Part shown: positions 6,287 to 61,254 of the stretch, piece by piece
How positions within the stretch are numbered: the first letter of the stretch is position 1
How the letters are laid out: each line of letters starts with the position of its first letter
Source: Bacteroidales bacterium
GTDB lineage: Bacteria > Bacteroidota > Bacteroidia > Bacteroidales > FEN-979
Length of the DNA stretch: 64,000 nucleotides
Reading direction: 5' to 3'
Assembly (NCBI GenBank): GCA_963662525.1
Contig: OY759717.1
Coordinates: 3,157,670-3,221,669, forward strand
Made by a program: the position numbers and the translations under genes
Notes under the pieces: model-generated
Seen by the model: the letters and a program-made list of their open reading frames with translations, nothing else
Told to the model about the DNA's origin: nothing
Database searches by the model: none

Positions 6287-6306
6287 GGTAATGGTAATTG
6301 GTCAGT

Positions 6307-6636
6307 TTATTTGTTTTCGATGGTCTGGTTGCTGTCGAGAGCAATGGCCGATTTTTCAACGCGTAGTCTGACCTGGTTTTCAACTTCAATGGTCACAGTC
6401 GTTTCCTGGATTTCAACAATGCGTCCATGAATGCCACCAATGGTGATTACTTTCTGACCCTTCTCCAGCGACTCCCTGAATTTTTTTTGATCTTTCGACC
6501 GTTTCATCTGGGGACGGATAAAGAAGAAATAAAACACAACGATGATCAATAATAAAGGAAGGAAAGACCACCAGCCATTTTGCTGTCCACCCTGGCCCTG
6601 AGGAGCCATAAGCAGGATATTCAATAGATTTGTCAT
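6307..6636 (-). CDS. yajC: Preprotein translocase subunit YajC
   Basis: FFFIRPQMKRSKDQKKF..GQKVITIGGIHGRIVEI is the YajC signature. Confidence 0.85.
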   Translation of the reverse strand: MTNLLNILLMAPQGQGGQQNGWWSFLPLLLIIVVFYFFFIRPQMKRSKDQKKFRESLEKGQKVITIGGIHGRIVEIQETTVTIEVENQVRLRVEKSAIALDSNQTIENK

Positions 6637-6640
6637 AATA

Positions 6641-6717
6641 ATTTACGATTTACGATTAATAATTTAACTCACAAACTCACCAGCTCACCAACTCACCAGC
6701 TCACCAGCTCACCAACT
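6641..6717. repeat. Intercistronic tandem repeats: ATTTACG x2.4 (6641-6657), then an 8-nt unit RCTCACMA x6 (6667-6717)
   Basis: Read directly: atttacgatttacgatt ... actcacaa actcacca gctcacca actcacca gctcacca gctcacca act. Confidence 0.9.
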
Positions 6718-7195
6718 ATTTATTCCCTCCAGGTGCCGTAACCTGTGCCTTAATATTGAGTAAGGTAGTATTGGGCTGAGTATTGGCAACGACCAGGATA
6801 TTTTTTGATTGAAAGCCCCTTTTACCCTGGCTGTTAAAGGCAATGCGGATCACACCTTCTTCGCCTGGCCGGATCGGTGTTTTCGGATAGGAGGGAACCG
6901 TACATCCGCAGGAAGTACTTACTTCCGCGATGATCATATCAGACTTTCCGGTATTTTTAAATTTAAAATTAAAAGCAACAGTTTCTCCTTCCAGAATTTT
7001 TCCAAAATCATGCTCCGTTTCTTCAAATTGAAAAACCGGGAGCAGGGTCTGATCTGTTTTTCCGTCAGCTGTATTCGGGTTATTGACAACATCGGTAGAA
7101 ATATTTCCCTGTTCGCTGCCTGAACCGGAATGACAGGAATGTAATAGCATTCCGGCAAATATGGTGAGGAAAAGAAAAAATGATTTGACCCGCAT
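6716..7195 (-). CDS. DUF1573 domain-containing lipoprotein
   Basis: Signal/lipobox LLHSC plus the DUF1573 core FKFKNTG..STSCGCTVP. Confidence 0.8.
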   Translation of the reverse strand: MRVKSFFLFLTIFAGMLLHSCHSGSGSEQGNISTDVVNNPNTADGKTDQTLLPVFQFEETEHDFGKILEGETVAFNFKFKNTGKSDMIIAEVSTSCGCTVPSYPKTPIRPGEEGVIRIAFNSQGKRGFQSKNILVVANTQPNTTLLNIKAQVTAPGGNK

Positions 7196-16363: not shown

Positions 16364-18532
16364 ATGAAGAAAATATTTTTATTCATGTTGCTTACGGGTA
16401 TTTTTATGGAAAGTTCATTGGCTCAGAATCCTTTTTTTACTGATTGGAATACCCCATTTCAGGTACCCCCCTTCGGAGAGATAACCAATGAGCATTATAT
16501 GCCGGCATTTGCTGAGGCAATGAAACAACAGAAAGCAGAGATCGATGCTATTGTTGGACAAACTGCACTACCCACTTTTGAAAATACAGTTCTGCCTCTC
16601 GACCAGAGCGGATCCCTGCTGGAAAAGGTCAGCAGTGTTTTCTATGCTTTGAATTCTGCCAATACGAATGTTGAGATGCAGCGTATTGCCCGTGAAATTT
16701 CTCCACTCATGTCGCAACATATGGACGATATTAACCTGAATTCCGAATTGTTCAGGAAGATAAAGGCAGTATATGAACAGAAAGAAAAAATGAATCTGAA
16801 TCCTGAACAGAAAAGACTTGTTGAGGAAACTTATAAGGGCTTTGTCAGGGGAGGTGCAAACCTGAATCCGGAACAACAGGCAAAACTACGGGAATTGAAC
16901 AAGGAAATCGGTTTGCTGCAGCTTACCTTCGGACAGAATCTCCTTGCAGAGAACAACAGCTATAAACTCGTTATCGATAATCAAGCGGATCTGGCCGGAT
17001 TACCCGATGGCGTTATTGCAACAGCAGCTGAAGTGGCTGACAACGACTCTGCCACAAAAGGTAAATGGGTATTTACACTGCATAACCCGAGCGTTATACC
17101 TTTTCTCCAATTTTCCGAGAAAAGAGTCCTGAGAGAAAAGATCTTCACAGCCTACATCAACCGCTGTAACCATGGCGATGATAAAGACAATAAAACACTG
17201 ATCTCAAAGTTGGTTTCACTCAGGAAGGATAAGGCTAATCTTATGGGTTATCCTGATTATGCCAGTTTTGCATTGGAAGAGCGAATGGCAAAAAAGCCTG
17301 AAAATGTTTATCGCCTTCTCGACCAGATATGGACACCGGCACTTCAGATGGCTAAGAAAGAAGCTGCTGATATGCAGGACATGATGGATAAAGAAGGAGG
17401 TAAATTCAATCTCGAAGGCTGGGACTGGCGTTTTTACAGTGAGAAAATGATGAAGCATCGCTTTCAGCTTGATGAAGAATCTTTACGTCCCTATTTTAAA
17501 CTTGAAAATGTCAGGGATGGGATCTTTTACGTTTCGAATAAATTATATGGTATTACTTTCACCGAGGTCAAGGATGCCCCAAAATATCATGGCGATGTGA
17601 CCTTATACGAATGTAAGGATGCCGATGGTTCTCATTTAGGCGTACTATATCTCGATTTTTTCCCCAGAGAAAGTAAACGAGGAGGAGCATGGTGTGGTAG
17701 TTTTCGTTCCCAATCATACAAGGATGGCAAAAGGGTTCCGCCGGTCGTTACCATTGTCTGTAATTTTTCCATGCCCGGTGATGGCAAGCCCGCTTTGCTG
17801 ACTCCGGATGAAGCTGAAACTTTCTTCCATGAATTCGGTCATGCGTTGAATGGCTTGTTCAGTAATGTTAAATACACCGGACTTGACCGCGTCCCCCGTG
17901 ATTTTGTCGAACTTCCATCCCAGATTATGGAACATTGGGCTTTTCAACCGGAAGTGTTAAAGATTTATGCAAAGCATTACCAGACAGGCCTCGTTATACC
18001 TCAGTCCCTGGTGGATAAAATCGTGAAGAGCGGTAAATTCGGTCAGGGATTTAAAACGACAGAATACCTCGCTGCATCATACCTTGATATGGACTACCAT
18101 ACCGAAAAAAAACAGGAAAAGGAGGTTTCTGCCGCTGCTACTTTAACCGGAGTCGTGACCGCAATCGATATGCAATCTGCTTCACAACCGGGATTAAATA
18201 TGGATGTTCCTGCATTTGAAGCAGCTTCCATGCAAAGGATAGGACTCATTCATCAGATACCTCCACGTTACCGTTCCACTTATTTTCAACATACGATGAC
18301 AGGTGGTTATACCGCCGGGTATTACAGCTATATCTGGGCCGAAGTGCTTGATGCCGATGCATTTCAGGCCTTTAAAGAAAAGAAGAATATTTTTGATAAA
18401 GCAACAGCCGGCAAATTCCGCACTTGTATTCTGGAAAAAGGAAATACCAAGGATGCCATGGAATTGTATATTGATTTTCGAGGACATGAACCAGGCATCG
18501 AAGCTTTGCTGGAAAACAGGGGATTAAAATGA
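16364..18532 (+). CDS. dcp: M3-family peptidyl-dipeptidase (Dcp-like)
   Basis: Signal peptide, HEFGHALNG zinc motif, downstream E in DFVELPSQ. Confidence 0.85.
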   Translation: MKKIFLFMLLTGIFMESSLAQNPFFTDWNTPFQVPPFGEITNEHYMPAFAEAMKQQKAEIDAIVGQTALPTFENTVLPLDQSGSLLEKVSSVFYALNSANTNVEMQRIAREISPLMSQHMDDINLNSELFRKIKAVYEQKEKMNLNPEQKRLVEETYKGFVRGGANLNPEQQAKLRELNKEIGLLQLTFGQNLLAENNSYKLVIDNQADLAGLPDGVIATAAEVADNDSATKGKWVFTLHNPSVIPFLQFSEKRVLREKIFTAYINRCNHGDDKDNKTLISKLVSLRKDKANLMGYPDYASFALEERMAKKPENVYRLLDQIWTPALQMAKKEAADMQDMMDKEGGKFNLEGWDWRFYSEKMMKHRFQLDEESLRPYFKLENVRDGIFYVSNKLYGITFTEVKDAPKYHGDVTLYECKDADGSHLGVLYLDFFPRESKRGGAWCGSFRSQSYKDGKRVPPVVTIVCNFSMPGDGKPALLTPDEAETFFHEFGHALNGLFSNVKYTGLDRVPRDFVELPSQIMEHWAFQPEVLKIYAKHYQTGLVIPQSLVDKIVKSGKFGQGFKTTEYLAASYLDMDYHTEKKQEKEVSAAATLTGVVTAIDMQSASQPGLNMDVPAFEAASMQRIGLIHQIPPRYRSTYFQHTMTGGYTAGYYSYIWAEVLDADAFQAFKEKKNIFDKATAGKFRTCILEKGNTKDAMELYIDFRGHEPGIEALLENRGLK

Positions 18533-18537
18533 AAAAG

Positions 18538-18610
18538 GTAACAGAGTGACAAAGTGACAAAGTAACAAAGTAGAAATCTCACCTTATCACTCTGTCGCTC
18601 TGTCACTCTG

Positions 18611-18622
<12 letters not shown>
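18538..18622. repeat. Inverted arrays of the 8-nt unit GTRACARA (18538-18573) and its complement (18587-18622); possible bidirectional terminator
   Basis: gtaacaga gtgacaaa gtgacaaa gtaacaaa gtag / tcactctg tcgctctg tcactctg ttactctg tcac. By my count 26 of 36 positions are complementary across a 13-nt loop. It lies between convergent genes. Confidence 0.8.
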
Positions 18623-21552
<2,930 letters not shown>

Positions 21553-21556
<4 letters not shown>

Positions 21557-27859: not shown

Positions 27860-28738
27860 ATGGAAAGACTAGTCTACTATATTTTTCGGTTCTTTGTCTG
27901 GTTATTCTCACTGTTTTCATTCAGGCAACTATATGTTTTTTCAGATATTCTTTGTTTCTTTTTCTATAGAATTGTGCAGTACCGGAAGAAAGTTGTCATT
28001 GATAATCTGAGAAATTCATTTCCTGACAAAACAGAAGCTGAGATCAGTATTATTGCCACAGGTTTTTATAAACATCTCTTCGATGTGATTACGGAAAGCC
28101 TGAAAGCTTTCAGCATGACTGAAAAATCGGTGATCGACAGGTATCAGTTTATTAAATCTGATGAGCTGGAAGCATTATTTCTTAAAAATCAGTCTGCCAT
28201 ATGTGTTGCAGGACATTTCAACAATTGGGAATGGGCTGGAATTGCTGCCGGGAGCCAGCTTCAGCATAAACCAGTCGGATTCTATAAACCACTGACCAAC
28301 AAGTTGACCGATGCCTATATCCAGAGAGTTAGGGCTCAGGGCAGGGCTGCCCTGGTTTCCATCACAAAAACGTCAGAAGCGTTTAAAGCCGATTATGGGG
28401 AACCTACTTTATTCTATATGGTTGCTGATCAAAGTCCGTCAAGTCCACGATTGGCTTACTGGATTAATTTTCTTAACCAGGACACAGCAGCGTTGCATGG
28501 ACCTGAAAAATATGCCAGATTATATAATTATCCGGTATTTTATACTGATGTTCAGAAAATTAAAAGAGGATATTATACTGTTTCCTTCATCCCGCTGGAA
28601 CTTGATCCATTGAAAACGAAAACAAGCGAAATTACAACCAGGTTCATGAACCTTCTGGAGGAAAAGATAAGGGAAAACCCTACTTCATATCTTTGGTCAC
28701 ACCGCCGCTGGAAACTCAAACGCCCAAACCCCCGCTAA
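27860..28738 (+). CDS. Lysophospholipid / lipid A biosynthesis acyltransferase (LpxL/HtrB family)
   Basis: N-terminal TM helix, HFNNWEW (HX4-type acyltransferase motif), about 290 aa. Confidence 0.75.
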   Translation: MERLVYYIFRFFVWLFSLFSFRQLYVFSDILCFFFYRIVQYRKKVVIDNLRNSFPDKTEAEISIIATGFYKHLFDVITESLKAFSMTEKSVIDRYQFIKSDELEALFLKNQSAICVAGHFNNWEWAGIAAGSQLQHKPVGFYKPLTNKLTDAYIQRVRAQGRAALVSITKTSEAFKADYGEPTLFYMVADQSPSSPRLAYWINFLNQDTAALHGPEKYARLYNYPVFYTDVQKIKRGYYTVSFIPLELDPLKTKTSEITTRFMNLLEEKIRENPTSYLWSHRRWKLKRPNPR

Positions 28739-28744
28739 CTTCCC

Positions 28745-28800
28745 AGCTCACCAGCTCACCACCTCACCACCTCACCAACTCACCAACTCACCAACTCACA
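28745..28800. repeat. 8-nt tandem repeat, 7 units, CTCACC family
   Basis: agctcacc agctcacc acctcacc acctcacc aactcacc aactcacc aactcaca. It lies between convergent 3' ends and overlaps the stop of the aconitase-like gene. Confidence 0.9.
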
Positions 28801-30595: not shown

Positions 30596-30615
30596 TTGGT
30601 TATGTTTTAATTAGT

Positions 30616-30715
30616 GAATGCAGTCAATGCAAAAATATTTTAAATATATCATTTTTTTGCATTCTTTTCATTCCTTGCATTCCTGCATTCCTGCATTCTT
30701 GCATTCCTTGCATTT
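30616..30715. repeat. 8-nt tandem repeat GCATTCYT (about 7 units, 30659-30715) with a short inverted partner (30616-30635)
   Basis: gcattctt ttcattcctt gcattcct gcattcct gcattctt gcattcctt gcattt. Upstream lies gaatgcagtcaatgcaaaaa. Confidence 0.9.
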
Positions 30716-34044: not shown

Positions 34045-34051
34045 TTTTTTT

Positions 34052-34059
34052 TACTTTTG
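34052..34059 (+). promoter_or_regulatory. Bacteroidota -7 promoter box TACTTTTG
   Basis: Exact match 25 nt upstream of ATG 34084. It overlaps the TTG start at 34057 used by the ORF track. Confidence 0.4.
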
Positions 34060-34083
34060 AATTCTTTAATAGCCCACACAAGC

Positions 34084-34857
34084 ATGTTAGTTTACCGTTT
34101 TAGAATGACATCGGAAGATCATGAAAGTTTCATCAGGGAAATAGAAATTTTGCCGGGTCAGACTTTTCTTGATTTTCATACTATCATCATGGAATCTGCA
34201 GAATTGATTCATTGCCAGCGTGCTTCTTTTTTTCTGACCGATAAAATTTACAAAAAGCATCAGGAGATCACCCTGAAAACAGAAAAGCGGCAAATCAGGC
34301 AATATGATGACGATCTTGACCAGATCGTTAACGTGTCAGTGACTTTACCTTTGATGAAAGCTTCAAAGCTTAAAAACTATATTGAAGATCCCCATCAGAA
34401 GATGATTTATGAATTCCATGGTAAAGAGTTCTTTTCATTTCACATTGAATTATTTAAAATCGTTCAGTCCGATGGTTCCTTTAGCTTTCCACGGTGCAAT
34501 AAACGGAATGGTGAACTACCCAGAAAAGCGGAAGTACCTGCCGTGTCGGTGGAAGAACCGGTGGTGGCGAAAGTTGTAATTCCTAAGATTATTATCCCAA
34601 AACCTGAATCACTGGCCAAATTGGATCATATCCAGGAAGATGAATCTGAAATTTTAGCGATAGAAAGCCAGTTAAGTGAATTGCAGGAGGAAGAAGAATC
34701 TCCCATTTTTGAAGCTCAGGAAGTATACGCGGAAAACGAGTCCGAAGGCCATTCCTATGAAGAGGAGGAACAGATGGAACATATCGAGGATTATGATGAT
34801 ATGGATAAGCTTGAAAGAAAATATTCAGGCTTCGATCATGATTCCGATGATTACTGA
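34084..34857 (+). CDS. Hypothetical protein with an acidic C-terminal tail (N-terminus faintly resembles the pRiA4b ORF-3 / MM3350-like fold)
   Basis: YRFRM...FIREIEILPGQTFLDFHTIIMES loosely echoes the Y.F.V...IWRRI.V....TL.DLH..I pattern. The C-terminal third is Glu/Asp-rich. Confidence 0.45.
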   Translation: MLVYRFRMTSEDHESFIREIEILPGQTFLDFHTIIMESAELIHCQRASFFLTDKIYKKHQEITLKTEKRQIRQYDDDLDQIVNVSVTLPLMKASKLKNYIEDPHQKMIYEFHGKEFFSFHIELFKIVQSDGSFSFPRCNKRNGELPRKAEVPAVSVEEPVVAKVVIPKIIIPKPESLAKLDHIQEDESEILAIESQLSELQEEEESPIFEAQEVYAENESEGHSYEEEEQMEHIEDYDDMDKLERKYSGFDHDSDDY

Positions 34858-37462: not shown

Positions 37463-38911
37463 TCATGCCGTGCAATCCGGCTTGTTTTTATTCCATAGAA
37501 AGTATACCGGTATGCCAAGGATAACGATAAGAAACCCTGGCCAGGTATAAATCGGTTTAAAAATTAACAGGATCATCATGATCAGGGAAGCAAGAACAAT
37601 ATAAACTGCAGGAATGAATGGATACCCAAAGGCTTTGTAAGGCCTTTCCAGTTCAGGTTTATTTTTTCTCAGAACAAATATCCCGGAAATGGTTAGTACA
37701 TAGAAGATCAGTACAGCAAAAACAACATAATCCAGCAATTGACCATACGTTCCGGAAAGGCATAATAAGCCGGCCCAGATGGCCTGAACAAAGAGCCCGT
37801 AAGCCGGAACTCCTTTGGAATTCAAATGCCCTGCTTTTTTGAAAAACAATCCGTCAACAGCCATGGAATAATAGACTCTGGCACCGGATAAAATCAGCCC
37901 ATTGTTGCACCCGAAAGTTGAAATAACGATGAATACAGCCATGATGATGACGGCATAATTTCCGAACAGACCTGAAATGGCAGCAGTTCCGAGTCTGTCG
38001 TTCAGCGCGTATTGCATGCCGCGTGCCGTGATATCTCCACCCGTGGGTTCTCCCCTGAGCGGAAGTACGGTAAGGTAAACTACGTTGGCCAGTATATAAA
38101 GTAAAGTAACAAGAATGGTCCCGAAAGCCAGGCTCAGTGGAATATTTTTTCTTGGATTGATCACCTCGCCTGCAGTGAAAGTGATATTGTTCCAGGCATC
38201 CGAGGAAAACAAGGTCCCTACCATGGCCATACCCAAAGCCGCAATCAGTGCGAAACCGGAGATCGGGATGTCTTGTCCGCCCGGACCTTCTTGCATGGGT
38301 TGCCAGAATATTTTTTCATTGATGTTGATGGCGCCGGAATTGGTAGCAAAGCCAAGCCCGACAACAATGAACCCGACGACCAGTAAAACTTTTCCGGTGG
38401 TAAAGGCATTCTGAACCCGCTTCCCTTCCTGGATTCCCCTGGAGTTGATCCAGGTAAGGATGGCAATGGAGGCAATGGCCACGATCTGCACTGGCCCGAA
38501 TTTGAAAAAGCCTGCTTTGAACCAGATCACATCCTCCGAAACCCAGGGCACCAATACCCCGAAAAATTTGGCAAAAGCCATGCCCACAGCGGCAATGGTG
38601 CCGGTCTGTATTACCAGGAACATGGTCCAGCCGAAAAGAAAGCCGATAAGCGGGTTATACGCTTCCTTAAGATATACATATTGTCCGCCGGCTTTCGGGA
38701 ACATGGCAGCCAGTTCTCCATAGCTTAGCGCCGCACAGATGGTCAGAAACCCTGCAAGCAGCCAGGCAATCATCAGCCAGCCCGGGGAGCCCAGCTGACG
38801 GGAAACATCAGCACTGACAATGAAAATCCCCGAACCGATCATCGATCCGGCCACAATCGCCGTGGAATCGAATAAATTCAAACTTTTTTTAAAGGTTTGT
38901 TCCCTGTTCAT
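37463..38911 (-). CDS. APC-family amino acid permease
   Basis: About 12 predicted TM helices, GSGIF and GELAAMFPKAGGQYVY motifs. Confidence 0.85.
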   Translation of the reverse strand: MNREQTFKKSLNLFDSTAIVAGSMIGSGIFIVSADVSRQLGSPGWLMIAWLLAGFLTICAALSYGELAAMFPKAGGQYVYLKEAYNPLIGFLFGWTMFLVIQTGTIAAVGMAFAKFFGVLVPWVSEDVIWFKAGFFKFGPVQIVAIASIAILTWINSRGIQEGKRVQNAFTTGKVLLVVGFIVVGLGFATNSGAININEKIFWQPMQEGPGGQDIPISGFALIAALGMAMVGTLFSSDAWNNITFTAGEVINPRKNIPLSLAFGTILVTLLYILANVVYLTVLPLRGEPTGGDITARGMQYALNDRLGTAAISGLFGNYAVIIMAVFIVISTFGCNNGLILSGARVYYSMAVDGLFFKKAGHLNSKGVPAYGLFVQAIWAGLLCLSGTYGQLLDYVVFAVLIFYVLTISGIFVLRKNKPELERPYKAFGYPFIPAVYIVLASLIMMILLIFKPIYTWPGFLIVILGIPVYFLWNKNKPDCTA

Positions 38912-38917
38912 GAAGCT

Positions 38918-38966
38918 CAGATTACAGATTACTGATCGCCCATCGCCTATCGCTATCGCCTATCGC
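38918..38966. repeat. Mixed 7-nt tandem repeats (CAGATTA x2, then YATCGCC x5)
   Basis: cagatta cagatta ctgatcgcc catcgcc tatcgc tatcgcc tatcgc, immediately upstream of the permease start. Confidence 0.8.
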
Positions 38967-43953: not shown

Positions 43954-43988
43954 TTAACTCCTAATTCCTAACTCTTAATTCCTAATTT
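43954..43988. repeat. 7-nt tandem repeat YTAAYTC x5
   Basis: ttaactc ctaattc ctaactc ttaattc ctaattt. It spans the uvrA stop and encodes the uvrA C-terminal residues LGIKS. Confidence 0.85.
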
Positions 43989-46793
43989 TTCTTTCAGGAA
44001 ATATCCCGTATATGATCCCTTATCTTTTGCCAGTTCTTCCGGAGTACCTTCATAAACAAGGTTTCCTCCTGTATCTCCGCCTTCCTTTCCCAGGTCGATG
44101 ACCCAGTCGGCACATTTGATGACTTCCGGATTATGCTCAATCACCAGGATTGTATGCCCATGAACAATCAGAGAATCAAAAGCTATCAGGAGTTTGTGTA
44201 TGTCGTGAAAATGAAGTCCGGTAGTTGGTTCGTCAAAAATAAACAGGGTCGGTTTTTCACTGTTTCCCTTGGAAAGGAAGAAAGCCAGCTTGATACGCTG
44301 CGCTTCACCGCCTGAAAGGGTGGAGGATGACTGTCCCAGCCTGAGATATCCTAATCCCACATCCTGCAATGGTTTTAATTTCGCCAGTATGCGTTTTTCA
44401 GGTGCACTGGGTTTGAATTCAGGATTGAAAAATTCCATGGCTTCATCCACGGTCATATTCAGGATATCCACGATGTTTTTCTCCCGGTATTTTACATCCA
44501 GCACTTCTTCCTTAAAGCGGTGTCCTTTGCAGCTTTCACAGGGAAGAAAGAGATCAGCCATGAATTGCATTTCAATTTTTACTACTCCTTCGCCTTCACA
44601 ATCTTCACAACGCCCGCCTTCAATATTGAAGGAAAAATACCCGGGCTTGTAACCCCTTACTTTGGCTAATTGTTGCTCGGAATAGAGATTTCTTATTTCA
44701 TCGAAAGCCTTGATATAAGTAGCAGGATTCGACCTGGAAGAACGTCCGATCGGGTTCTGGTCAACCATTTCCACGGCTCCGATACGGTTGATATCGCCAT
44801 CAAGCCGATCGAATTTACCTGTCTTTTCCCCATATCCACCGTACATCTTCTTCAGGGCAGGGTAGAGGATGCGTTTCACCAGGGAAGTCTTTCCCGATCC
44901 GCTTACACCGGTGATCACCGTAAAAACATGCAAAGGAATTTTTACTGTAATATTTTTCAGGTTGTTTTCCCTGGCCCCTTTGATTTCAATGAATTCCTTC
45001 CATTGGCGCCTGCTGGCGGGCAACTCAATTTTCAGGTGATGGTTCAGGTACTGACCGGTCAGGCTAACCTTATCCTGCATCAGGGCTTCAAAATTCCCCT
45101 GGAACATGATTTCACCTCCGTGGCTGCCTGCCAGCGGACCGATATCAATCACCTGGTCGGCTGCCTTGATGATCTCCTCTTCATGCTCTACCACGATAAC
45201 GGTGTTCCCTACATCACGAAGTCGCAGCAGAACCTTGATGAGCCGCTGGGTATCGCGGGGATGAAGTCCGATGCTGGGTTCATCCAGGATATACATGGAT
45301 CCGACCAGGCTGCTGCCAAGGGCGGTGGAAAGGTTGATGCGCTGTGATTCCCCTCCTGAAAGCGAGGATGATAAGCGGTTCAGGTTCAGATACCCGAGTC
45401 CAACATCATTCAACACTTCCAGGCGGTTATTGATCTCGATCAGCAGTCTGCGGCTTAAAATCTTTTCGTACTCATTCAGTTCAAGCCGGCTGAAAAATGA
45501 GGTCAGTTCAGTTACCGGCATCAGGACCAGTTCGCTGATGGACCTGCCATTGATCCTTACATAATTCGCATCCTTGCGTAAACGGGTTCCCTTGCATTCC
45601 GGGCAAACGGTCTTTCCCCTGTACCGAGACATCATTACCCGGTACTGGATCTTGTAATTCTGGGTTTCAATATATTCGAAAAACTTGTTCAGGCCTTTGA
45701 AATATTTGTTTCCTGTCCAAAGCAAGTCTTTCTGTAACTGGGTGAGTTCAAAGAATGGTTTGTGTATAGGGAAATCAAATTTATAGGCATTGAGCAGCAG
45801 TTCCTGCTTCCATTCTCCCATCTTTTCACCTTTCCAGCAGGCAACGGCTTCATCATAAACGGAAAGGCTTTTATTGGGGATCACCAGGTCTTCGTCGATG
45901 CCAATCACACTACCGAATCCTTCACAGGCTTTACAAGCTCCGTAAGGGTTGTTGAAGCTGAACAGGTTTTCTGATGGTTCTTCAAAAATGATACCGTCTG
46001 CTTCAAATTTATTGGAAAATGTCCTTCTGATTTTTGCTCCTGAAACCATCTCCACCATGCAACTGCCATGACTTTCAAAGAATGCTGTTTGAACAGAATC
46101 GGCAATCCTTCCGGGGAGATCTTCATCGGCATGCTGAACCGCAAAACGGTCAACAAGGATAAAAAACTGACTGAATGCCGGAAGCTTTTCATGTTCCAGA
46201 TCCTCAAGCTGAAGCAATTGCTCGTCCATCATCACCCGCGAAAACCCCTGCTGCAGCAATACCTGGCATTTCTGCTCCAGGTTACCGTTCATCAGTTTCA
46301 GATCAAGGGGAGCAAAAATGCTGACCCGGGAATCTTCAGCCAGTTCCATAATGGCATCCACGACATCGGTTACGCTGTCGCGCCTGACCTGGTCGCCGGA
46401 AACCGGTGAAATGGTTTTCCCGATACGGGCAAAAAGCAGCTTCAGGTACTCATATATTTCTGTGGATGTTCCCACCGTGGATCTTGGGTTCAGGGTGTTG
46501 ACCCGCTGTTCTATGGCAATGGCAGGGGCAATCCCTGAGATGCTGTCAACTTCCGGTTTGCTCATCCTTCCCAGGAATTGCCGGGCATAAGCGCTCAGGC
46601 TTTCCACATAGCGCCGTTGTCCTTCGGCATACAAGGTATCGAAAGCCAGGGATGATTTTCCTGAACCTGACAAACCGGTAATGACCACGAATTTGTTGCG
46701 TGGTATAGACAGGTTTATATTTTTAAGATTATTGACCCGGGCGCCTTTGATGATGATGAAATCCCTCGGATCCGGCGTATTTACATTCGTCAT
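43968..46793 (-). CDS. uvrA: Excinuclease ABC subunit A
   Basis: Two ABC ATPase modules ([23 protein letters not shown]) and zinc-finger cysteines. Confidence 0.95.
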
Positions 46794-49061: not shown

Positions 49062-49085
49062 AATGCAAGAATGCAGGAATGCATC
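49062..49085. repeat. 8-nt tandem repeat AATGCARG x3 (reverse orientation of the GCATTCYT family)
   Basis: aatgcaag aatgcagg aatgcatc, between the MBL-hydrolase stop and the trmD start. Confidence 0.85.
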
Positions 49086-52996: not shown

Positions 52997-53003
52997 ATTC
53001 GAT

Positions 53004-53071
53004 TAATAATTAATAATTAATAATTTCTTTTACCAACTCACCAACTCACTAACTCACCAACTCACCAACTC
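53004..53071. repeat. Intercistronic tandem repeats: TAATAAT x3 (53004-53024), then the 8-nt unit ACCAACTC x5 (53032-53071)
   Basis: taataat taataat taataat ... accaactc accaactc actaactc accaactc accaactc. This forms most of the 76-nt spacer between the HydS-kinase stop and the REC start. Confidence 0.9.
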
Positions 53072-53072
53072 T

Positions 53073-55055
53073 TTACTTCCCTCTCGGAATGGTAACCCTG
53101 AACGTTGTTCCTGTTGTTCCTGCAGTTGGATCATTATTGGAGTCAACATGGATCTTGCCTTTGTGCATTTTAACAATTCCATAGATCAAAGCCAATCCAA
53201 GTCCGGTTCCCTTTCCCATTTCTTTCGTTGTAAAAAACGGAGTAAAAATTCTATCCATATTTGCTTTAGATATTCCCGTTCCTGTATCTGTAACCAAAAA
53301 GATTATTTCGCTTTCATTACCCTCTACACTCACTTTCAGGTTTCCGCCTGCAGGCATAGCCTCGATGGCATTTTTTTCCAGGTTAGTCATAACCTGCATC
53401 ATCTGATCAATATCGAGGCATGCCATAGGATCCGCAATATTCGGCTCAAATGTAAAGCTGACATTTTCAGGTTTTATAATAGAATTGAGGCTGTGTGCGG
53501 CAAATTTGACCACATCCGTTTCCGACAGGTTGACCTGGTTTTTTCTGGCAAAGTTCAATAATCCGCTGACGATTTTCTTACAACGGTCAGCTTGCTCCAC
53601 GATGAGTTTGAGATCCTCTTTAACTGCATCGTCTTCCTTTGCCTCGTCCATCAGAATATTACTGTACATAGTGATAACGCCAAGCGGATTATTCAGTTCA
53701 TGGGCAATACCGGCAGAAAGTTGACCCATATGGGCTAGTTTTTCGGACTGTTTCAAGGCGGCTTTTGCTTTGGCCAGCTTCTCATTGGAAATATTCAGGC
53801 TGCTGATGGAATCATGAAGTTTCTCAATGGCGAAAGGAAGACACATTTCTGTTTCAGCAAGACCATTCACGATGGCACTGGCATGATCGACACATGTATC
53901 GTATCCGCAGGCACCACAATTCAGATGATCCTTTGCGGTAAACTTTCCCATGGCATGAAGTGCTTCCAGGACTTCCTCGTTGGTGGGTGGTGCCAGCCGT
54001 CGGTCTTCAGGTGTGAAATGCTGGGATAAGTCAATGTCACTGAATTCATTCATTTCCTTATCCCACAATTCCTTATTGATATTCCTGAGTTTATTATATG
54101 CATATTTTCCAATAGCAGCGCTCCGTGAGAACCTTTTCCCTCCGGGGGATGTTCCGGGTCCCATGATGCAACCTTCACAGCATAATAACATCAGGTTCTT
54201 ATCTTTGATCAACCCGTCTTCATATTCTTTAATAGCTTCTTTGTAATTGATCCGTCCTTCAGCAACAATGACATGTTCTTCAGGGATGGTTTCTGCTCCA
54301 TTGGCGGTATGATATAAACCCCTGCTGATTGGGAAGATCGCTCCTTTTCCTGAATATGGAGGATCAAAATCAGAGGGTTCAACCTCATTAGGATGAATGT
54401 TCATATCCTGGAACATCTCACGAAGTTCAACAAAGGTAAGTACTTCATCAACCTCAAGGGTTTCGGCTTTTTTTGCAAAACATGGGCCAACGAAAACTAT
54501 TTTAGTCTCTTTGCCATATTTTTTACGCAGTATTCTTGTCATGGCAACCATGGGAGATGCAATCGGGGCAAGATTTTCGACGAGTTCGGAGTGGTAATGC
54601 CGGATAAAATAAACAATGGCTGGACAATCAGATGAGATTATCCCAACCCCATCATTTGATTTGATTTTTTTTTCATATTCCCTGGCAACGACATCCGCAC
54701 CAAATGAGACTTCGGTGACAAAATCAAAGCCAAGTCGACGCAGCATCCCGACTAAAACCCGGTGATTTTCTATTTCCGTGAACTCAGCAGGAAAACTTGG
54801 GGCTATACAAACGGCAATTTTTTTATCCGACTGTAAAAGAATTTTAACCTCTTCCGTTGAACGTAATGGATATTTTGCGCCCTGGCTGCAGACTTTAACA
54901 CAATTTCCACAACCAATACAGCGGTCGTTGATAACCTCAGCCTGGCCATTGATAATTTTTATGGCTTTAACCGGACATTCCCTGAGACAGGTATAGCAAA
55001 CCCGGCACCTGTCCTTCAGTGTAAAAACCAATTGCCTGTGATAAGAATGACTCAT
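53073..55055 (-). CDS. HydS-like sensory [FeFe]-hydrogenase domain fused to a histidine kinase
   Basis: N-terminal 2x[4Fe-4S] ferredoxin motifs. H-domain motifs are altered from the catalytic form (SSDCPA, GPCFAKKAE, LCCEGCIMGPG). A Cx2Cx4Cx16C motif follows (CGACGYDTC...EMC), then a coiled coil, H-box AHELNNPL and HATPase GTGLGLALI. The start overlaps the hydA stop (TAATG). Confidence 0.8.
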   Translation of the reverse strand: MSHSYHRQLVFTLKDRCRVCYTCLRECPVKAIKIINGQAEVINDRCIGCGNCVKVCSQGAKYPLRSTEEVKILLQSDKKIAVCIAPSFPAEFTEIENHRVLVGMLRRLGFDFVTEVSFGADVVAREYEKKIKSNDGVGIISSDCPAIVYFIRHYHSELVENLAPIASPMVAMTRILRKKYGKETKIVFVGPCFAKKAETLEVDEVLTFVELREMFQDMNIHPNEVEPSDFDPPYSGKGAIFPISRGLYHTANGAETIPEEHVIVAEGRINYKEAIKEYEDGLIKDKNLMLLCCEGCIMGPGTSPGGKRFSRSAAIGKYAYNKLRNINKELWDKEMNEFSDIDLSQHFTPEDRRLAPPTNEEVLEALHAMGKFTAKDHLNCGACGYDTCVDHASAIVNGLAETEMCLPFAIEKLHDSISSLNISNEKLAKAKAALKQSEKLAHMGQLSAGIAHELNNPLGVITMYSNILMDEAKEDDAVKEDLKLIVEQADRCKKIVSGLLNFARKNQVNLSETDVVKFAAHSLNSIIKPENVSFTFEPNIADPMACLDIDQMMQVMTNLEKNAIEAMPAGGNLKVSVEGNESEIIFLVTDTGTGISKANMDRIFTPFFTTKEMGKGTGLGLALIYGIVKMHKGKIHVDSNNDPTAGTTGTTFRVTIPRGK

Positions 55056-56773: not shown

Positions 56774-56781
56774 GCTGGTGT

Positions 56782-58731: not shown

Positions 58732-58732
58732 G

Positions 58733-59379: not shown

Positions 59380-61254
59380 ATGACTATGGAAAGCATACCC
59401 CTTCTCCGGATTACTCACGACCTCTGTATCAAATGCTATTCCTGTGTGCGCATATGTCCGGTAAAGGCCATCCGGGTAGATGTTAAAACAGAACTTCCTT
59501 CCATTATACCAGAACGATGTATCGGTTGCGGCAGTTGCTACAGAGCCTGTTCACCTTCAGCCATTTTCTATCGTAGCTCCATTGAAGATACCAAAGCATT
59601 ACTTGCTTCAGGAAAACCCATTGCAGCCATTTGTGATCCCACTATTTCCGGCGAATTTCGCGATATTACAGATTACCGCAAATTTGTTGAAATGATCAAA
59701 CAACTTGGTTTTGCTTATGTCAGTGAAGTTTCATTCGGCGTTGATCTTGTTGCAAGAAAGTACAAAGAGCTTTTCGATAATTTCAAAGGAAAATTCCATA
59801 TCAGTGCCAATTGTCCTGCATTAGTTTTCTTTATTGAAAAATTTTATCCTCACTTGATTCCCAACCTCGTTCCTGTCGTTTCCCCCATGGCCGCTACCGC
59901 AAAAGTGTTGCGACACAAGTATGGAGAGGATCTGGGAATTGTTTTTATCGGCCCTTGCATAGCGACAAAAAATGAAGCCCTGACCTATTCCGGTGATGCA
60001 AAAATAGATTCCGTCCTGACTTTTGTTGAACTTAGGGAATTATTTACTCAACTTAATATCCGGGAAAGCCAGGTTGAATTTGCCGAATTTGATCCTCCAC
60101 TTGGTTATAAAGGTTCCTTGTATCCGATTAGTAACGGGATTATTCAGTCGGTGGATATCAACGAAGATTTGCTCACAGGGAACGTTATTACTACGGAGGG
60201 AAAAAATAATATGGTCGATGCCGTGAAAGAATTTGATTCCCGTATCGACATGATCAAACGACATTTTAATATTTTTTATGATGAGGGCTGCCTGATGGGA
60301 CCAGGAACCTCTCCCGCAGGAGAGAAATTCCTGCGCATGACGCTTGTGACAGATTATGCCAATAAACGTCTTGGATCCTTTGATAAAAAAAACTGGAATG
60401 CCGATATTGCTTCTTTCGCTAGTCTCGATCTTTCACGGCAATTTATTCCTGACGACCAGAGGTTACAGGTACCCTCAGATGAAAAGATTGAGGAAGTTTT
60501 AAAGATGATCAACAGGGAAGGTCAACTTCACAATGAAATTGGTTGCGAAGCTTGTGGGTACACCAATTGCAGAGAACTGGCTGTTGCTATTGCCCAGGGA
60601 CTCGCAACTACCGAAATGTGTCATGTTTTCAGTGGCCGGAACCGGCAAGAGTATATTCAGACTTTGCGATCAACCAACGAAAAACTGGCCAAAACAAAAG
60701 CTGCCCTGAAAGAGTCGGAAGAAAAAGCGAAACAAGAGCAGGAAACTCAGAAAGAATCATCGGAAATCATCTCTTCGATGTTGCAGAAACTGGTTTCGGG
60801 AGTTGTCATCGTGGATGAACATCTGAGAATTATTCAGTCAAATAAAGCCTTTATCCGTATCCTAGGGGAGGAAGCTTCCCTGGTGGATGAAGTGATCCCC
60901 GGTTTGGTGGGAGCTAACCTGAAATCCTTACTTCCGGTTCCTTTTTATAAAATGTTCTCCTATGTGCTTTCTTCCGATGAAAATATTGAAAATAAAGATG
61001 TGAATTACCAGGAAAATAAATTAAGCGTTTCCATATTTCCTATCCGGAGTCAGAAATTTGTTGGTGCAATACTCAGGGATATGTATGTCCCTGAGGTCCG
61101 AAAGGAGCAAATTATCAACCGGCTTACTGAAGTGATTGATGAAAACTTCGATATGGTTCAGAAAATCGCTTACCTGCTTGGTGAAGGAGCTGCAAAAACT
61201 GAACAGATGCTCAATTCTATCATTGAATCTCACAGAAATCCTCAAAAAAAATAA
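59380..61254 (+). CDS. hydS: HydS-like sensory [FeFe]-hydrogenase paralog with C-terminal PAS domain
   Basis: Paralogous to 53073-55055: 2x[4Fe-4S] N-terminus, SANCPAL, GPCIATKNE, FYDEGCLMGPG, Cx2Cx4Cx16C (CEACGYTNC...EMC), coiled coil, and a PAS-like C-terminus (VVIVDEHLRIIQSNKAF...). Confidence 0.8.
   Translation: MTMESIPLLRITHDLCIKCYSCVRICPVKAIRVDVKTELPSIIPERCIGCGSCYRACSPSAIFYRSSIEDTKALLASGKPIAAICDPTISGEFRDITDYRKFVEMIKQLGFAYVSEVSFGVDLVARKYKELFDNFKGKFHISANCPALVFFIEKFYPHLIPNLVPVVSPMAATAKVLRHKYGEDLGIVFIGPCIATKNEALTYSGDAKIDSVLTFVELRELFTQLNIRESQVEFAEFDPPLGYKGSLYPISNGIIQSVDINEDLLTGNVITTEGKNNMVDAVKEFDSRIDMIKRHFNIFYDEGCLMGPGTSPAGEKFLRMTLVTDYANKRLGSFDKKNWNADIASFASLDLSRQFIPDDQRLQVPSDEKIEEVLKMINREGQLHNEIGCEACGYTNCRELAVAIAQGLATTEMCHVFSGRNRQEYIQTLRSTNEKLAKTKAALKESEEKAKQEQETQKESSEIISSMLQKLVSGVVIVDEHLRIIQSNKAFIRILGEEASLVDEVIPGLVGANLKSLLPVPFYKMFSYVLSSDENIENKDVNYQENKLSVSIFPIRSQKFVGAILRDMYVPEVRKEQIINRLTEVIDENFDMVQKIAYLLGEGAAKTEQMLNSIIESHRNPQKK

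What the first reader, a model, noticed from the sequence alone, without database searches (positions are those of the whole stretch)
6667..6717. Recurrent CTCACCAA-type octamer arrays at gene junctions
The same 8-nt unit is tandemly repeated at four places: 6667-6717 (6 units), 28745-28800 (7 units), 53032-71 (5 units), and in reverse orientation inside a CDS at 20829-20848. The intergenic copies start within a few nucleotides of a stop codon and form much or most of the spacer to the next gene. Variant units occur in runs (AG,AG,AC,AC,AA,AA,AA at 28745-28800), as expected from local slippage or duplication. The unit is not self-complementary, so these arrays are not classical hairpin terminators. 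They have no spacers, so they are not CRISPR. I do not know of a described function for such arrays. Possibilities include protein or RNA-binding platforms, intercistronic processing sites, or hypermutable spacers.
Basis: seen in the sequence. Interest (0 to 1): 0.65.

Follow-up and report, generated by a model that had tools for sequence, protein, structure and literature searches.

The report
Stop-codon-anchored octamer repeat arrays
Several genes in this uncultured Bacteroidales genome are followed immediately by short tandem arrays of an 8-base unit; these are real, fast-evolving simple-sequence spacers of a known but functionally unexplained kind, and they are almost always oriented so that the mRNA strand is G-rich and C-poor.

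Summary
CTCACCAN octamer arrays lie at 6666-6717, 28743-28799 and 53032-53071, with a 2.6-unit in-frame copy at 20829-20849. They far exceed chance, and independent assemblies of two other sequencing runs end inside arrays 1 and 3 with identical unit variants. All three intergenic arrays abut the stop codon of a minus-strand gene, so the mRNA reads (UUGGUGAG)n.

They belong to a wider phenomenon. About a third of this window's non-divergent spacers carry 7-9 nt arrays of various units, and none of eight divergent spacers does. At the orthologous DUF1573-yajC and aconitase junctions, relatives carry arrays of different units (GGTAGCGA, AAGGGAGC, TTGATGAG, GAATGAGT...) or none. In 25 of 26 unit families the sense strand has G>C.

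The arrays are not hairpins, CRISPR or any Rfam family. Composition-matched control octamers form arrays about as often, so the CTCACC word itself is not special.

Best reading: these are slippage-generated long simple-sequence repeats of the kind described by Mrazek 2007, Rehm 2015 and MacGregor 2015. They fill the unconstrained zone after the stop codon, and a transcription-linked filter, probably Rho, fixes their polarity. Function is unproven.

Verdict: new member of a known kind, moderate interest.

The parts
6666..6717 (-). Array 1: (TTGGTGAG/CTGGTGAG) x6.5 on the sense (minus) strand, starting at the TAG stop of the DUF1573 gene (6716..7195)
   Evidence: independent assemblies
6637..6665 (-). 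AT-rich leader between array 1 and the yajC ATG (6634-6636), containing (AATCGTA) x2.4 at 6641-6657. No TAnnTTTG promoter motif is present.
   Evidence: the same heptamer array is conserved upstream of yajC in many relatives
28743..28799 (-). Array 2: (TTGGTGAG/GTGGTGAG/CTGGTGAG) x7.1. It is the only sequence between the convergent acyltransferase gene (stop 28736-28738, plus strand) and the aconitase-family gene (stop TGA 28796-28798, minus strand). That stop plus the last Leu codon form the first degenerate unit.
53032..53071 (-). Array 3: (TTGGTGAG, one TTAGTGAG) x5.0, 1 nt after the TAA stop (53073-53075) of the hydrogenase-like sensor histidine kinase gene
   Evidence: independent assembly
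52997..53031 (-). AT-rich leader with (TATTAAT) x3.4 (53002-53025) between array 3 and the response-regulator ATG (52994-52996)
20829..20849 (+). In-CDS copy: GGTGAGTT x2.6 on the plus strand, so CTCACCAA lies on the sense (minus) strand of the FAD-oxidase/Fe-S gene 18611..21556. It is in frame and encodes ..HQLTNSP.. inside a roughly 65-residue stretch that does not align to solved homologs.
18538..18623 (.). Two inverted octamer arrays, GTRACAAA x4.4 (sense for the plus-strand peptidase gene) and TCACTCTG x4.6 (CAGAGTGA on the sense strand of the minus-strand FAD-oxidase gene). Together they form a long hairpin followed by CCUUUUU on the minus-strand RNA, which is an intrinsic terminator built from arrays.
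   Evidence: MFE -47.5 kcal/mol, z -11 on the minus strand
30657..30714 (-). Array of a different family, (GGAATGCAR) x6.8 on the sense strand, starting at the stop (30714-30716) of a 181-aa gene. It pairs with inverted GAATGCA units at 30613-30631.
43955..43987 (-). Heptamer array (GGAATTA/GGAGTTA) x4.7 on the sense strand, overlapping the stop of gene 43968..46793
49062..49083 (-). Short array AATGCAAG x2.8 (plus strand) abutting the stop (49084-49086) of a metallo-beta-lactamase-fold gene. It is the one array in the window with C>G on the sense strand.
38935..38966 (-). Heptamer array ATCGCCT x4.7 (plus strand; G-rich on the minus sense strand), 23 nt upstream of the start of gene 37463..38911. 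It is the only start-proximal GC-containing array.

Best explanation
The arrays are long simple-sequence repeats with 7-8 nt units. They are generated and continually remodelled by replication slippage or local duplication. They sit in the only unconstrained part of a compact 3' UTR or intercistronic spacer, which lies between the stop codon and either the roughly 30-nt AT-rich initiation region of the next gene or the end of a convergent gene.

They are transcribed as part of the mRNA. Their exact sequence and length are not under strong selection, but their polarity is. Only arrays whose sense strand is G-rich and C-poor (and usually contains stop triplets in all three frames) persist.

The most likely filter is Rho. 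A C>G, unstructured, untranslated tract on the mRNA would load Rho and silence downstream genes. The same tract on the antisense strand is harmless or useful.

Shown: existence, position, polarity, unit turnover, absence of structure. Inferred: slippage as the generator, co-transcription, Rho as the filter.
For: Repeat class and periodicity:
- Periods 7 and 8 dominate tandem repeats in the window and 80 related loci (54 and 27 arrays, against 5 or fewer each for periods 6, 9 and 10).
- Variant units lie in runs, and array 1 has a 24-nt higher-order period.

Position:
- G-rich arrays start -3 to +18 nt from the stop codon at the yajC junction and -14 to +13 nt elsewhere.
- Window spacers of at least 15 nt: arrays in 6 of 15 co-directional, 2 of 4 convergent and 0 of 8 divergent spacers (hypergeometric P about 0.03).
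- Array-free orthologous spacers have a median of 29 nt against 109 nt with arrays, which fits an insertion between the stop and a constrained leader.

Turnover:
- Of 65 distinct DUF1573-yajC spacers, about 15 have stop-proximal arrays with at least 10 different units spanning 23-106 nt, and 35 have none.
- The aconitase junction shows the same pattern.

Polarity:
- G>C on the sense strand in 25 of 26 unit families.
- Adjacent arrays of convergent genes have opposite polarity, each matching its own gene. Polarity therefore follows transcription, not replication.
- In low-GC genomes from the cross-phylum scan, the G-rich strand is sense in 14 co-directional pairs against 3.
- The antisense RNA of arrays 1-3 is 46-54% C, 0-6% G and unstructured. 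This matches the rut definition of C>G bias, low structure and A/C preference, with about 30 nt sufficient.

Precedent: the same after-the-stop, G-rich-on-coding-strand, divergent-depleted pattern was reported for heptamer arrays in Xanthomonas.
Against: - Pure local slippage does not explain why one unit family occupies several unrelated junctions of one genome. Examples are TTGGTGAG at 3 junctions plus a CDS here, ATGAGTGA at 2 junctions in L277 and GGGTAWGA at 2 junctions in L191. The orthologous junction in sister genomes carries other units.
- The octamer is not over-represented as a singleton seed.
- Array-free spacers are G-poor (G 9%, C 17%), so the arrays are not amplified local sequence.
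- Recurrence of arrays at one junction across a clade argues for some maintenance.
- The Rho filter is untested. It does not obviously explain G-rich polarity at the ends of transcription units.
- As far as I know (own knowledge, not checked here), cyanobacteria lack Rho, yet they are rich in such arrays.
- A GTGA core is enriched (9 families against 2.4 expected), which hints at sequence preference.
Confidence: 0.5

Rival explanations
1. Polar Rho-loading insulators. The arrays are selected because their antisense transcript (CUCACCAA)n is an ideal rut site. RNA polymerase entering a gene's 3' end from the wrong direction, either read-through from a convergent gene or spurious antisense initiation, is terminated by Rho. 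Sense transcription passes through.
For: - The antisense strand of arrays 1-3 is 46-54% C, 0-6% G and A/C-rich, with MFE -1 to -2 kcal/mol. Rut sites are C>G, unstructured and A/C-preferring, and suppression of antisense transcription is Rho's universal role.
- C>G on the antisense strand in 25 of 26 families.
- Array 2 is the only sequence between two convergent genes, and no hairpin terminator lies within the 1.5-kb region scanned around it (28000-29500).
- In L080 and L273 each convergent gene has its own array beyond the central hairpin, positioned to catch read-through.
- Arrays are depleted from divergent spacers.
Against: - More than half of the orthologous junctions lack any array, so it is dispensable.
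- Arrays of 23-57 nt are shorter than the 60-90 nt optimum.
- Many relatives' units are only weakly C-rich on the antisense strand, for example TTCGCTAT and CTTGTTAC.
- The 8-nt period differs from the 9-10 nt per Rho subunit reported for E. coli.
- There are no transcript data.
- Similar arrays abound in cyanobacteria, which as far as I know lack Rho (own knowledge).
Confidence: 0.2
2. Sequence-specific cis-element. Each genome's preferred unit is recognised by a trans-acting RNA- or DNA-binding factor, or is installed by an active process. The arrays act as binding platforms that set intercistronic expression, mRNA stability or processing.
For: - Unit families are genome-specific rather than locus-specific.
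- A GTGA core occurs in 9 of 26 families against 2.4 expected.
- Arrays persist at the same junction across a clade.
- The octamer occurs essentially only as arrays, not as scattered words.
Against: - Units at one junction differ completely between close relatives. At 94% YajC identity the unit is GTAACAAG rather than TTGGTGAG.
- Array lengths range from 23 to more than 300 nt with no preferred copy number.
- One genome uses several unrelated families.
- Control octamers form arrays as often as CTCACCAN.
- The families are not independent, which inflates the GTGA statistic.
- No candidate factor was identified.
Confidence: 0.1
3. Terminator parts. The arrays are spacers between the stop codon and an intrinsic terminator, or the raw material of the terminator stem itself when two arrays lie in inverted orientation.
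For: - Window 18530-18613: two inverted arrays fold into a hairpin (MFE -47.5 kcal/mol, z -11) followed by a U-run.
- 30596-30716 forms a hairpin from inverted GAATGCA units (z -5).
- In L080 the arrays flank a GC-rich hairpin plus TTTT.
- L273 and L277 have inverted arrays between convergent genes.
Against: The three CTCACCAN arrays of the finding are single-orientation with no partner, no hairpin and no U-run. Arrays 1 and 3 lie inside apparent operons, directly upstream of genes without a promoter motif.
Confidence: 0.1
4. Unstructured or Shine-Dalgarno-like spacer. The arrays keep the intercistronic RNA single-stranded, or hold ribosomes through GGUGA pairing with the 16S 3' end, to aid initiation of the downstream gene in a Shine-Dalgarno-poor phylum.
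For: - The unit is not self-complementary.
- GGUGA is complementary to the UCACC of the anti-Shine-Dalgarno region (own knowledge).
- Arrays 1 and 3 precede genes by about 30 nt.
Against: - The native orientation is no less paired than the reverse complement in mRNA context (10 of 20; medians 0.57 against 0.55). The window's arrays are more paired in native orientation (0.74-0.76 against 0.34).
- By inspection, only about 5 of 26 unit families have at least 5 nt of Shine-Dalgarno complementarity (units listed).
- The arrays lie 30-36 nt from the ATG, too far for a Shine-Dalgarno role.
- Arrays also occur at convergent gene ends.
Confidence: 0.04
5. G-quadruplex-forming repeats like the GGGNATC arrays of Xanthomonas and Nostoc.
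For: The strand and position pattern is the same as for those repeats, and the G-rich strand is on the sense side.
Against: The unit has only GG runs separated by 6 nt, and many sister units (ATAGCGAA, GTAACAAG, AGATCAG) have no G-run at all. There is no preference for four units.
Confidence: 0.03

Closest known systems
Long simple sequence repeats (LSSR) with 5-11 nt units (Mrazek et al. 2007, as summarised in PMC4679880)
   Same: Tandem, spacer-less repeats of a short unit, longer than chance allows. They are concentrated in non-coding DNA, sporadic across phyla, dominated by unit lengths that are not multiples of three, and attributed to polymerase slippage.
   Different: Here octamers are as prominent as heptamers. 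The host is an uncultured Bacteroidales clade that is not among the LSSR-rich taxa listed there. This work also shows stop-codon anchoring, sense-strand G>C polarity and unit turnover at orthologous junctions.
G-rich GGGNATC / GGGGA(C/T)T heptamer arrays of Xanthomonas and Nostoc (Rehm et al. 2015, PMC4692102)
   Same: - Located between co-oriented ORFs and depleted between divergent ORFs.
- Most lie within 0-50 bp after the stop with the G-rich strand on the coding strand.
- Not tied to surface or virulence genes.
- Copy number and sequence vary between close species.
- Function unresolved.
   Different: Those units have GGG(G) tracts, form quadruplexes in vitro and prefer four copies. TTGGTGAG has only GG, its sister units often have no G-run, and no copy-number preference is seen.
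TAACTGA heptamer arrays of Beggiatoaceae, Cyanobacteria and a few Bacteroidetes (MacGregor 2015, PMC4679880)
   Same: - Genome-specific unit families spread over many intergenic sites.
- Related units are rare as arrays.
- Close relatives lack arrays at the same junction.
- Short-read contigs end in the arrays.
- No spreading mechanism is known.
   Different: TAACTGA arrays sit mostly immediately upstream of start codons in forward orientation. The octamers here sit immediately downstream of stop codons. The AATCGTA/TAATTTT heptamers next to the yajC start codon resemble the TAACTGA situation more closely.
Cyanobacterial STRR heptamers (Mazel et al. 1990; own knowledge)
   Same: Families of short tandem repeats dispersed in intergenic DNA, with each genome having a few preferred units.
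   Different: The phylum, unit length (7) and unit sequences all differ. STRR membership is defined by specific heptamers that are not present here.
Rho utilisation (rut) sites (review PMC12360218)
   Same: The antisense strand of the arrays is C>G, A/C-rich and unstructured, as rut sites are.
   Different: Rut sites are not tandem repeats and are defined functionally. No functional data exist for these arrays, and the sense strand is the opposite of a rut site.
REP/BIME-type extragenic repeats (own knowledge)
   Same: Found after stop codons in co-directional and convergent spacers, absent from promoter regions, and present in many copies per genome.
   Different: REP elements are imperfect palindromes mobilised by RAYT transposases. 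The arrays here are non-palindromic direct repeats, and hairpins arise only when two arrays happen to be inverted.

Membership tests
Long simple sequence repeats (5-11 nt unit class) | Head-to-tail repeats of a 1-11 nt unit without spacers | tested here: met
   Period 8 with 5.0-7.1 copies and 88-95% matches
Long simple sequence repeats (5-11 nt unit class) | Longer than expected by chance in that genome | tested here: met
   16 two-unit matches against 0.02 expected in shuffles
Long simple sequence repeats (5-11 nt unit class) | Predominantly non-coding location | tested here: met
   Three of the four CTCACCAN sites are intergenic, and 66 of 85 clade arrays are intergenic. Many of the 'coding' calls are spurious ORFs that span arrays.
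Long simple sequence repeats (5-11 nt unit class) | Copy number or sequence variable between related genomes | tested here: met
   Orthologous junctions carry different units, different lengths or no array. Variation within a strain could not be tested: the two other runs (three contigs) only reach into the arrays and agree with the window over the parts they cover.
G-quadruplex-forming GGGNATC-type repeats | Unit contains a G-tract of at least 3 G, so that four units can form a quadruplex | tested here: not met
   The unit TTGGTGAG has only GG
G-quadruplex-forming GGGNATC-type repeats | G-rich strand on the coding strand within 50 bp after the stop; depleted between divergent ORFs | tested here: met
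   compared
TAACTGA-type start-proximal heptamer arrays | Unit TAACTGA in forward orientation within a few nt upstream of a start codon | tested here: not met
   The unit differs, and the arrays lie 30-36 nt from the next ATG while abutting the previous stop
CRISPR array | Repeats of 23-50 nt separated by unique spacers of similar length | tested here: not met
   8-nt units with no spacers
Intrinsic (Rho-independent) terminator | GC-rich hairpin followed by a U-run | tested here: not met
   Arrays 1-3 have MFE -1 to -14.5 kcal/mol, not different from shuffles, and the scan found no terminator near array 2. The definition is met only by the inverted array pair at 18530-18613.
Rho utilisation (rut) site | C>G-biased, weakly structured RNA of about 30-90 nt | tested here: met
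   This holds for the antisense strand only: C 46-54%, G 0-6%, 40-57 nt, MFE -1 to -2 kcal/mol
Rho utilisation (rut) site | Rho binding and Rho-dependent termination at the site | not testable with these tools
   Needs Term-seq with and without bicyclomycin, or Helicase-SELEX
Rfam RNA families | Match to a curated covariance model | tested here: not met
   No hit at gathering score on the whole window other than one tRNA, and none at E<=1 on the spacers of arrays 1 and 2
Phase-variation contingency SSR | Repeat in a promoter or the 5' coding region of a surface or virulence gene, so that copy-number change switches expression or reading frame | tested here: not met
   The arrays follow the stop codons of housekeeping genes (DUF1573/yajC, aconitase family, sensor kinase)
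REP/BIME palindromic elements | Imperfect palindrome forming a stem-loop as a single unit | tested here: not met
   The unit is not self-complementary and single arrays do not fold

The most novel reading that the evidence does not exclude
The arrays are not passive slippage products but polar genetic punctuation. They would be installed or maintained at gene 3' ends in a genome-specific unit 'dialect' and would act as one-way transcription gates: G-rich and Rho-proof on the mRNA, and an ideal C-rich Rho-loading site on the antisense strand. This would protect genes from read-through and antisense transcription. It would also imply an unknown mechanism that copies one unit family to many unrelated stop codons.
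Probability: 0.15. Interest if true: 0.7.

Novelty: new member of a known kind. Interest (0 to 1): 0.4.

Why it matters
Short 7-8 nt tandem arrays in bacterial intergenic DNA have been known since about 1990 (cyanobacterial STRR; own knowledge) without an accepted function.

This case adds an uncultured Bacteroidales clade in which about a third of non-divergent spacers carry such arrays. It also gives unusually clean comparative evidence:
- The arrays are anchored at stop codons.
- Their polarity follows transcription, with the sense strand G>C in 25 of 26 families.
- The unit sequence turns over completely between orthologous junctions.
- One genome reuses the same unit at unrelated junctions.

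That combination narrows the possible explanations to a transcription-linked filter or function, with Rho or R-loops the obvious candidates. It can be tested in cultured carriers found in the scan, such as Anaerophaga, Leyella, Hymenobacter and Myroides.

There is also a practical point. These arrays break short-read assemblies, because contigs end inside them. They also create stop-free, start-free tracts on one strand that mislead ORF callers.

Tried and rejected
1. Chance or assembly artefact. Rejected by the shuffle expectation of 0.02 and by Logan contigs from two other sequencing runs that end in the arrays with identical variants.

2. A conserved cross-phylum CTCACCAN element. The genome scan gave more than 116 loci in many phyla. 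However, control scans with composition-matched permuted octamers gave 29, 9 and 11 stretches against 10 for the target, and mixed G/C units gave 8 and 3. The flanks of those loci share nothing with the window. The recurrence therefore reflects a general class, not one element.

3. A seed word amplified from scattered copies. The octamer and its sub-words occur outside arrays at the Markov expectation.

4. Hairpin terminator. Rejected for arrays 1-3.

5. Unstructured spacer as the reason for polarity. Rejected because native and reverse-complemented arrays do not differ in pairing probability.

6. Shine-Dalgarno-like standby sites. Only about 5 of 26 families have at least 5 nt of complementarity, and the distance to the ATG is 30-36 nt.

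7. Known RNA family. No Rfam hit.

8. The aconitase gene reading into array 2. This was my first reading (..IVSW*) and it was wrong. All 120 homologs end ..NGG(L/I)(L/F), nearly all ..NGGLL, and the stop codon itself is the first degenerate unit.

9. Literature search for the unit sequence as a bacterial repeat. Nothing relevant was found.

10. Extending the census into the source contig. One look-up failed. The other added 10 kb of a tight operon with no further arrays.

11. My first ORF-based classification of the cross-phylum loci was unreliable in high-GC genomes. The C-rich strand has neither stops nor starts, and the G-rich strand has TGA in all frames. I repeated the analysis on low-GC loci only.
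Full report
OBSERVATION

Reading the sequence and running Tandem Repeats Finder confirm period-8 arrays at four places:
- 6666-6717, 6.5 copies
- 28743-28799, 7.1 copies
- 53032-53071, 5.0 copies
- 20829-20849, a 2.6-copy stretch in the opposite orientation

A two-unit pattern with up to one mismatch occurs 16 times in the window against 0.02 expected from dinucleotide-preserving shuffles.

The window comes from an 838-kb metagenomic contig (ENA ERZ21878447). Three contigs assembled from two other sequencing runs (Logan, ERR12015701 and ERR12015700) stop inside array 1 from both sides and inside array 3. They carry exactly the same unit variants. The arrays are therefore real, and they break short-read assemblies.

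GENE CONTEXT

The ORF map and Pfam show that the three intergenic arrays each abut the stop codon of a well-supported minus-strand gene:
- Array 1 follows a DUF1573 protein gene, and yajC lies 29 nt further on.
- Array 2 follows an aconitase-family protein gene that is convergent with a lipid-A acyltransferase gene.
- Array 3 follows a hydrogenase-like sensor histidine kinase gene, and a response-regulator gene lies 35 nt further on.

On the transcribed strand the unit therefore reads TTGGTGAG (variants CTGGTGAG, GTGGTGAG).

For array 2, all 120 homologs end ..NGG(L/I)(L/F), nearly all ..NGGLL. The window gene ends CTA TTG TGA G|TTGGTGAG, so the last codon plus the stop form the first, degenerate unit. 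My earlier reading that the protein runs into the array was wrong.

Spacers 1 and 3 continue with AT-rich heptamer repeats (AATCGTA x2.4, TATTAAT x3.4) up to the next ATG. They lack the TAnnTTTG promoter motif that is visible in this window's divergent spacers. I therefore infer that arrays 1 and 3 are intercistronic parts of an mRNA.

The in-CDS copy encodes ..HQLTNSP.. in frame. It lies inside a roughly 65-residue stretch of an FAD-oxidase/Fe-S protein that does not align to solved homologs. This is a tolerant linker.

A WIDER PHENOMENON

The CTCACCAN arrays are one family among several in the window:
- GTRACAAA and its inverted partner TCACTCTG at 18538-18623
- GGAATGCAR at 30657-30714
- AATGCAAG at 49062-49083
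- GGAATTA at 43955-43987
- ATCGCCT at 38935-38966

Among spacers of at least 15 nt, arrays occupy 6 of 15 co-directional, 2 of 4 convergent and 0 of 8 divergent spacers (hypergeometric P about 0.03). In the window plus 80 related loci, periods 7 (54 arrays) and 8 (27) dominate, and periods 6, 9 and 10 are rare.

ORTHOLOGOUS JUNCTIONS

A metagenome scan with YajC returned 80 loci at 74-94% protein identity. After removing duplicates there are 65 distinct DUF1573-yajC spacers:
- About 15 have a GC-containing array that starts -3 to +18 nt from the stop codon. The units are different: GTAACAAG, GGTAGCGA, AAGGGAGC, ATAGCGAA, TGGTAAGY, TTGATGAG, GGGTAAGA, GTGAGAC, GTAGGAM, AGATCAG and others. Array lengths span 23-106 nt.
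- 23 have an AT-rich heptamer array next to the ATG.
- 35 have no array.

The median spacer is 109 nt with a G-rich array and 29 nt without any array. Some units are one substitution from the window's (TTGATGAG, TGGTAAGY). The closest relative, at 94% identity, has an unrelated unit.

The aconitase junction behaves the same way. L273 and L277 have (GAWTGAGT)n directly after the stop, plus an inverted array before the convergent gene. Other relatives have 30-44 nt without arrays, or overlapping genes.

Unit families are shared between unrelated junctions of one genome:
- TTGGTGAG at three junctions in this window
- ATGAGTGA at two junctions in L277
- GGGTAWGA at two junctions in L191

GTAGCGAG appears at the yajC junction in some genomes and at the aconitase-upstream junction in L280. 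I could not explain this genome-specific rather than locus-specific distribution. The octamer is not over-represented as a scattered word. Array-free spacers are G-poor (G 9%, C 17%), so the arrays are not simply amplified local sequence.

POLARITY

Across 26 unit families written in the sense of the gene whose stop they follow:
- G exceeds C in 25.
- Mean purine content is 72%.
- 20 contain a stop triplet on the sense strand against 3 on the antisense strand (15.1 expected from composition, P about 0.02).
- A GTGA core occurs in 9 against 2.4 expected. The families are not independent, so I treat this only as a hint.

Where two convergent genes each have an array, the two arrays have opposite polarity, each G-rich on its own gene's sense strand. 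This is seen at window 18538-18623, in L273 and L277, and at a Gemmatimonadaceae locus where inverted arrays flank a GC hairpin plus TTTT. Polarity therefore follows transcription, not replication.

In the cross-phylum set of CTCACCAN arrays, restricted to low-GC loci where ORF calls are reliable, the G-rich strand is the sense strand in 14 co-directional pairs against 3.

WHAT THE ARRAYS ARE NOT

- Hairpin terminators. Arrays 1-3 fold no better than shuffles, with MFE -1 to -2 kcal/mol on the C-rich strand and -8 to -14.5 kcal/mol (z -1 to -2) on the G-rich strand. No hairpin terminator lies within the 1.5-kb region scanned around array 2 (28000-29500). By contrast, the inverted pair at 18530-18613 folds at -47.5 kcal/mol (z -11) and is followed by a U-run, so arrays can supply terminator stems.
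- CRISPR arrays.
- Any Rfam family.
- A single conserved element. The genome scan found the pattern in more than 116 loci from many phyla, but composition-matched permuted octamers are found as arrays just as often in a control collection (10 against 29, 9 and 11). Only the arrays, not the flanks, match the window.
- An unstructured spacer. Reversing the arrays in silico does not change their pairing probability in mRNA context (10 of 20).
- Shine-Dalgarno mimics in general. Few families have the complementarity, and the arrays are too far from the ATG.
- G-quadruplex formers. There are no G-tracts of three or more.

MOST LIKELY MECHANISM

I read the arrays as long simple-sequence repeats produced and remodelled by slippage or local duplication. 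The supporting evidence is the runs of variant units, the higher-order 24-nt period in array 1, the rapid turnover and the broad length range. This step is inferred.

They accumulate where extra DNA is tolerated. That zone lies between the stop codon and the roughly 30-nt AT-rich leader of the next gene, or between convergent gene ends. This accounts for the anchoring at stops and for the 29 nt against 109 nt spacer lengths, both of which are shown.

The strong transcription-linked polarity needs a filter. The best candidate is Rho. According to the 2025 review, rut sites are C>G-biased, weakly structured and A/C-preferring. About 30 nt can suffice, Rho universally suppresses antisense transcription, and Bacteroidota Rho carries N-terminal insertions. 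The antisense RNA of arrays 1-3 is 46-54% C, 0-6% G and unstructured, while the sense RNA is the opposite. A C-rich array on an untranslated intercistronic mRNA segment would be expected to cause polarity and be purged. On the antisense strand it is harmless or protective. This step is also inferred.

A purely mutational alternative is R-loop-promoted expansion of tracts whose nascent RNA is G-rich, acting just after ribosome release. It would explain position and polarity equally well, and I could not separate the two.

COMPARISON WITH WHAT IS KNOWN

The class is described, in three places:
- Mrazek et al. 2007 (as summarised) defined long simple sequence repeats with 5-11 nt units. They are mostly non-coding, heptamers are commonest, and they are attributed to slippage.
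- Rehm et al. 2015 found that G-rich heptamer arrays in Xanthomonas and Nostoc lie within 50 bp after the stop with the G-rich strand on the coding strand. They are depleted between divergent ORFs, are transcribed, and vary between species. Their function is unresolved.
- MacGregor 2015 described genome-specific TAACTGA arrays, including in five Bacteroidetes. Relatives lack them at the same junction and contigs end in the repeats.

The present arrays meet the LSSR definition. They fail the defining features of the quadruplex-forming repeats (G-tracts) and of the TAACTGA arrays (unit and start-proximal position), while sharing their positional or distributional behaviour.

No paper in the searchable library mentions the CTCACCAA/TTGGTGAG unit as a bacterial repeat.

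VERDICT

This is a real, non-random, transcription-polar repeat class, and a new member of a known but functionally unexplained kind.

Interest is moderate. The comparative picture sharpens an old open question and suggests direct tests. That picture consists of stop anchoring, polarity, unit turnover and genome-specific families. No new mechanism is demonstrated.

Noticed in passing
window 6641-6657 and 53002-53025; L127, L144, L158, L159, L173, L175, L183, L190, L196, L197 upstream of yajC: A second repeat class, AT-rich heptamers (AATCGTA, TAATTCG, TAATTTT; up to about 10 copies in L173), lies 2-13 nt upstream of the yajC start codon in 23 of 65 distinct orthologous spacers. It is more conserved at this junction than the G-rich octamers. 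It resembles the start-proximal TAACTGA arrays of MacGregor 2015 and may be an A/U-rich translation leader in this Shine-Dalgarno-poor phylum.
   Followed up: partly
window 18530-18613: Two inverted octamer arrays between convergent genes form a roughly 35-bp hairpin (MFE -47.5 kcal/mol on the minus-strand RNA, z -11) followed by CCUUUUU. This is an intrinsic terminator assembled from simple-sequence arrays.
   Followed up: yes
window 30596-30716: GAATGCA-type units occur in both orientations within one 118-nt spacer and fold into a hairpin (z about -5) around an AT-rich loop. The same unit family recurs at 49062-49083 in the opposite orientation relative to its gene. That site is the only array in the window with C>G on the sense strand.
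   Followed up: partly
L080 520-660 (Gemmatimonadaceae MAG DASVNI010000184.1); also L001, L008, L028, L074: In this soil Gemmatimonadaceae genome, CTCACCAA arrays flank a conserved GC-rich hairpin (ACGGCCTCGGGA...TCCCGAGGCCGT) plus TTTT. This is a repeated bidirectional-terminator cassette with inverted arrays on both sides.
   Followed up: partly
L096 1460-1790 (Bacteroidales MAG chromosome OY820914.1): A 38-unit (304-nt) CTGGTGAG array whose first unit contains the upstream gene's TGA stop codon. It is followed directly by a second array of a different octamer (CAGTATCT x5).
   Followed up: no
L023, L029, L039, L062, L091, L103, L118, L271, L274, L278, L285: Many short-read contigs from different projects end inside these arrays. 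The arrays are therefore a systematic cause of MAG fragmentation, and their copy numbers in short-read assemblies are unreliable.
   Followed up: partly
L273 1072-1200: The spacer upstream of the aconitase gene in this relative carries TGACTGAT-type arrays and their inverted copies. The unit is one substitution from the TAACTGA heptamer described in Beggiatoaceae, Cyanobacteria and Bacteroidetes.
   Followed up: no
window 52598-59197 and L270 11142-19540: A dense cluster of [FeFe]-hydrogenase-like genes. It includes two hydrogenase-domain sensor histidine kinases (53073..55055 and 59380..61254), NADH-dehydrogenase-like subunits and response regulators, which suggests H2/redox-sensing regulation of an electron-bifurcating hydrogenase.
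   Followed up: no
window 34045-34675: My greedy ORF selection left a 631-nt 'spacer' here. An ORF at 34057..34857 (266 aa, TTG start) overlaps it, so this is probably a gene start-site ambiguity and not true intergenic DNA.
   Followed up: no
window 6287-6306: The 20-nt spacer after yajC reads GGTAAT GGTAAT TGGTCAGT. This is a two-copy hexamer that is G-rich on the sense... in fact on the plus strand, antisense to the minus-strand genes. It is too short to classify.
   Followed up: no
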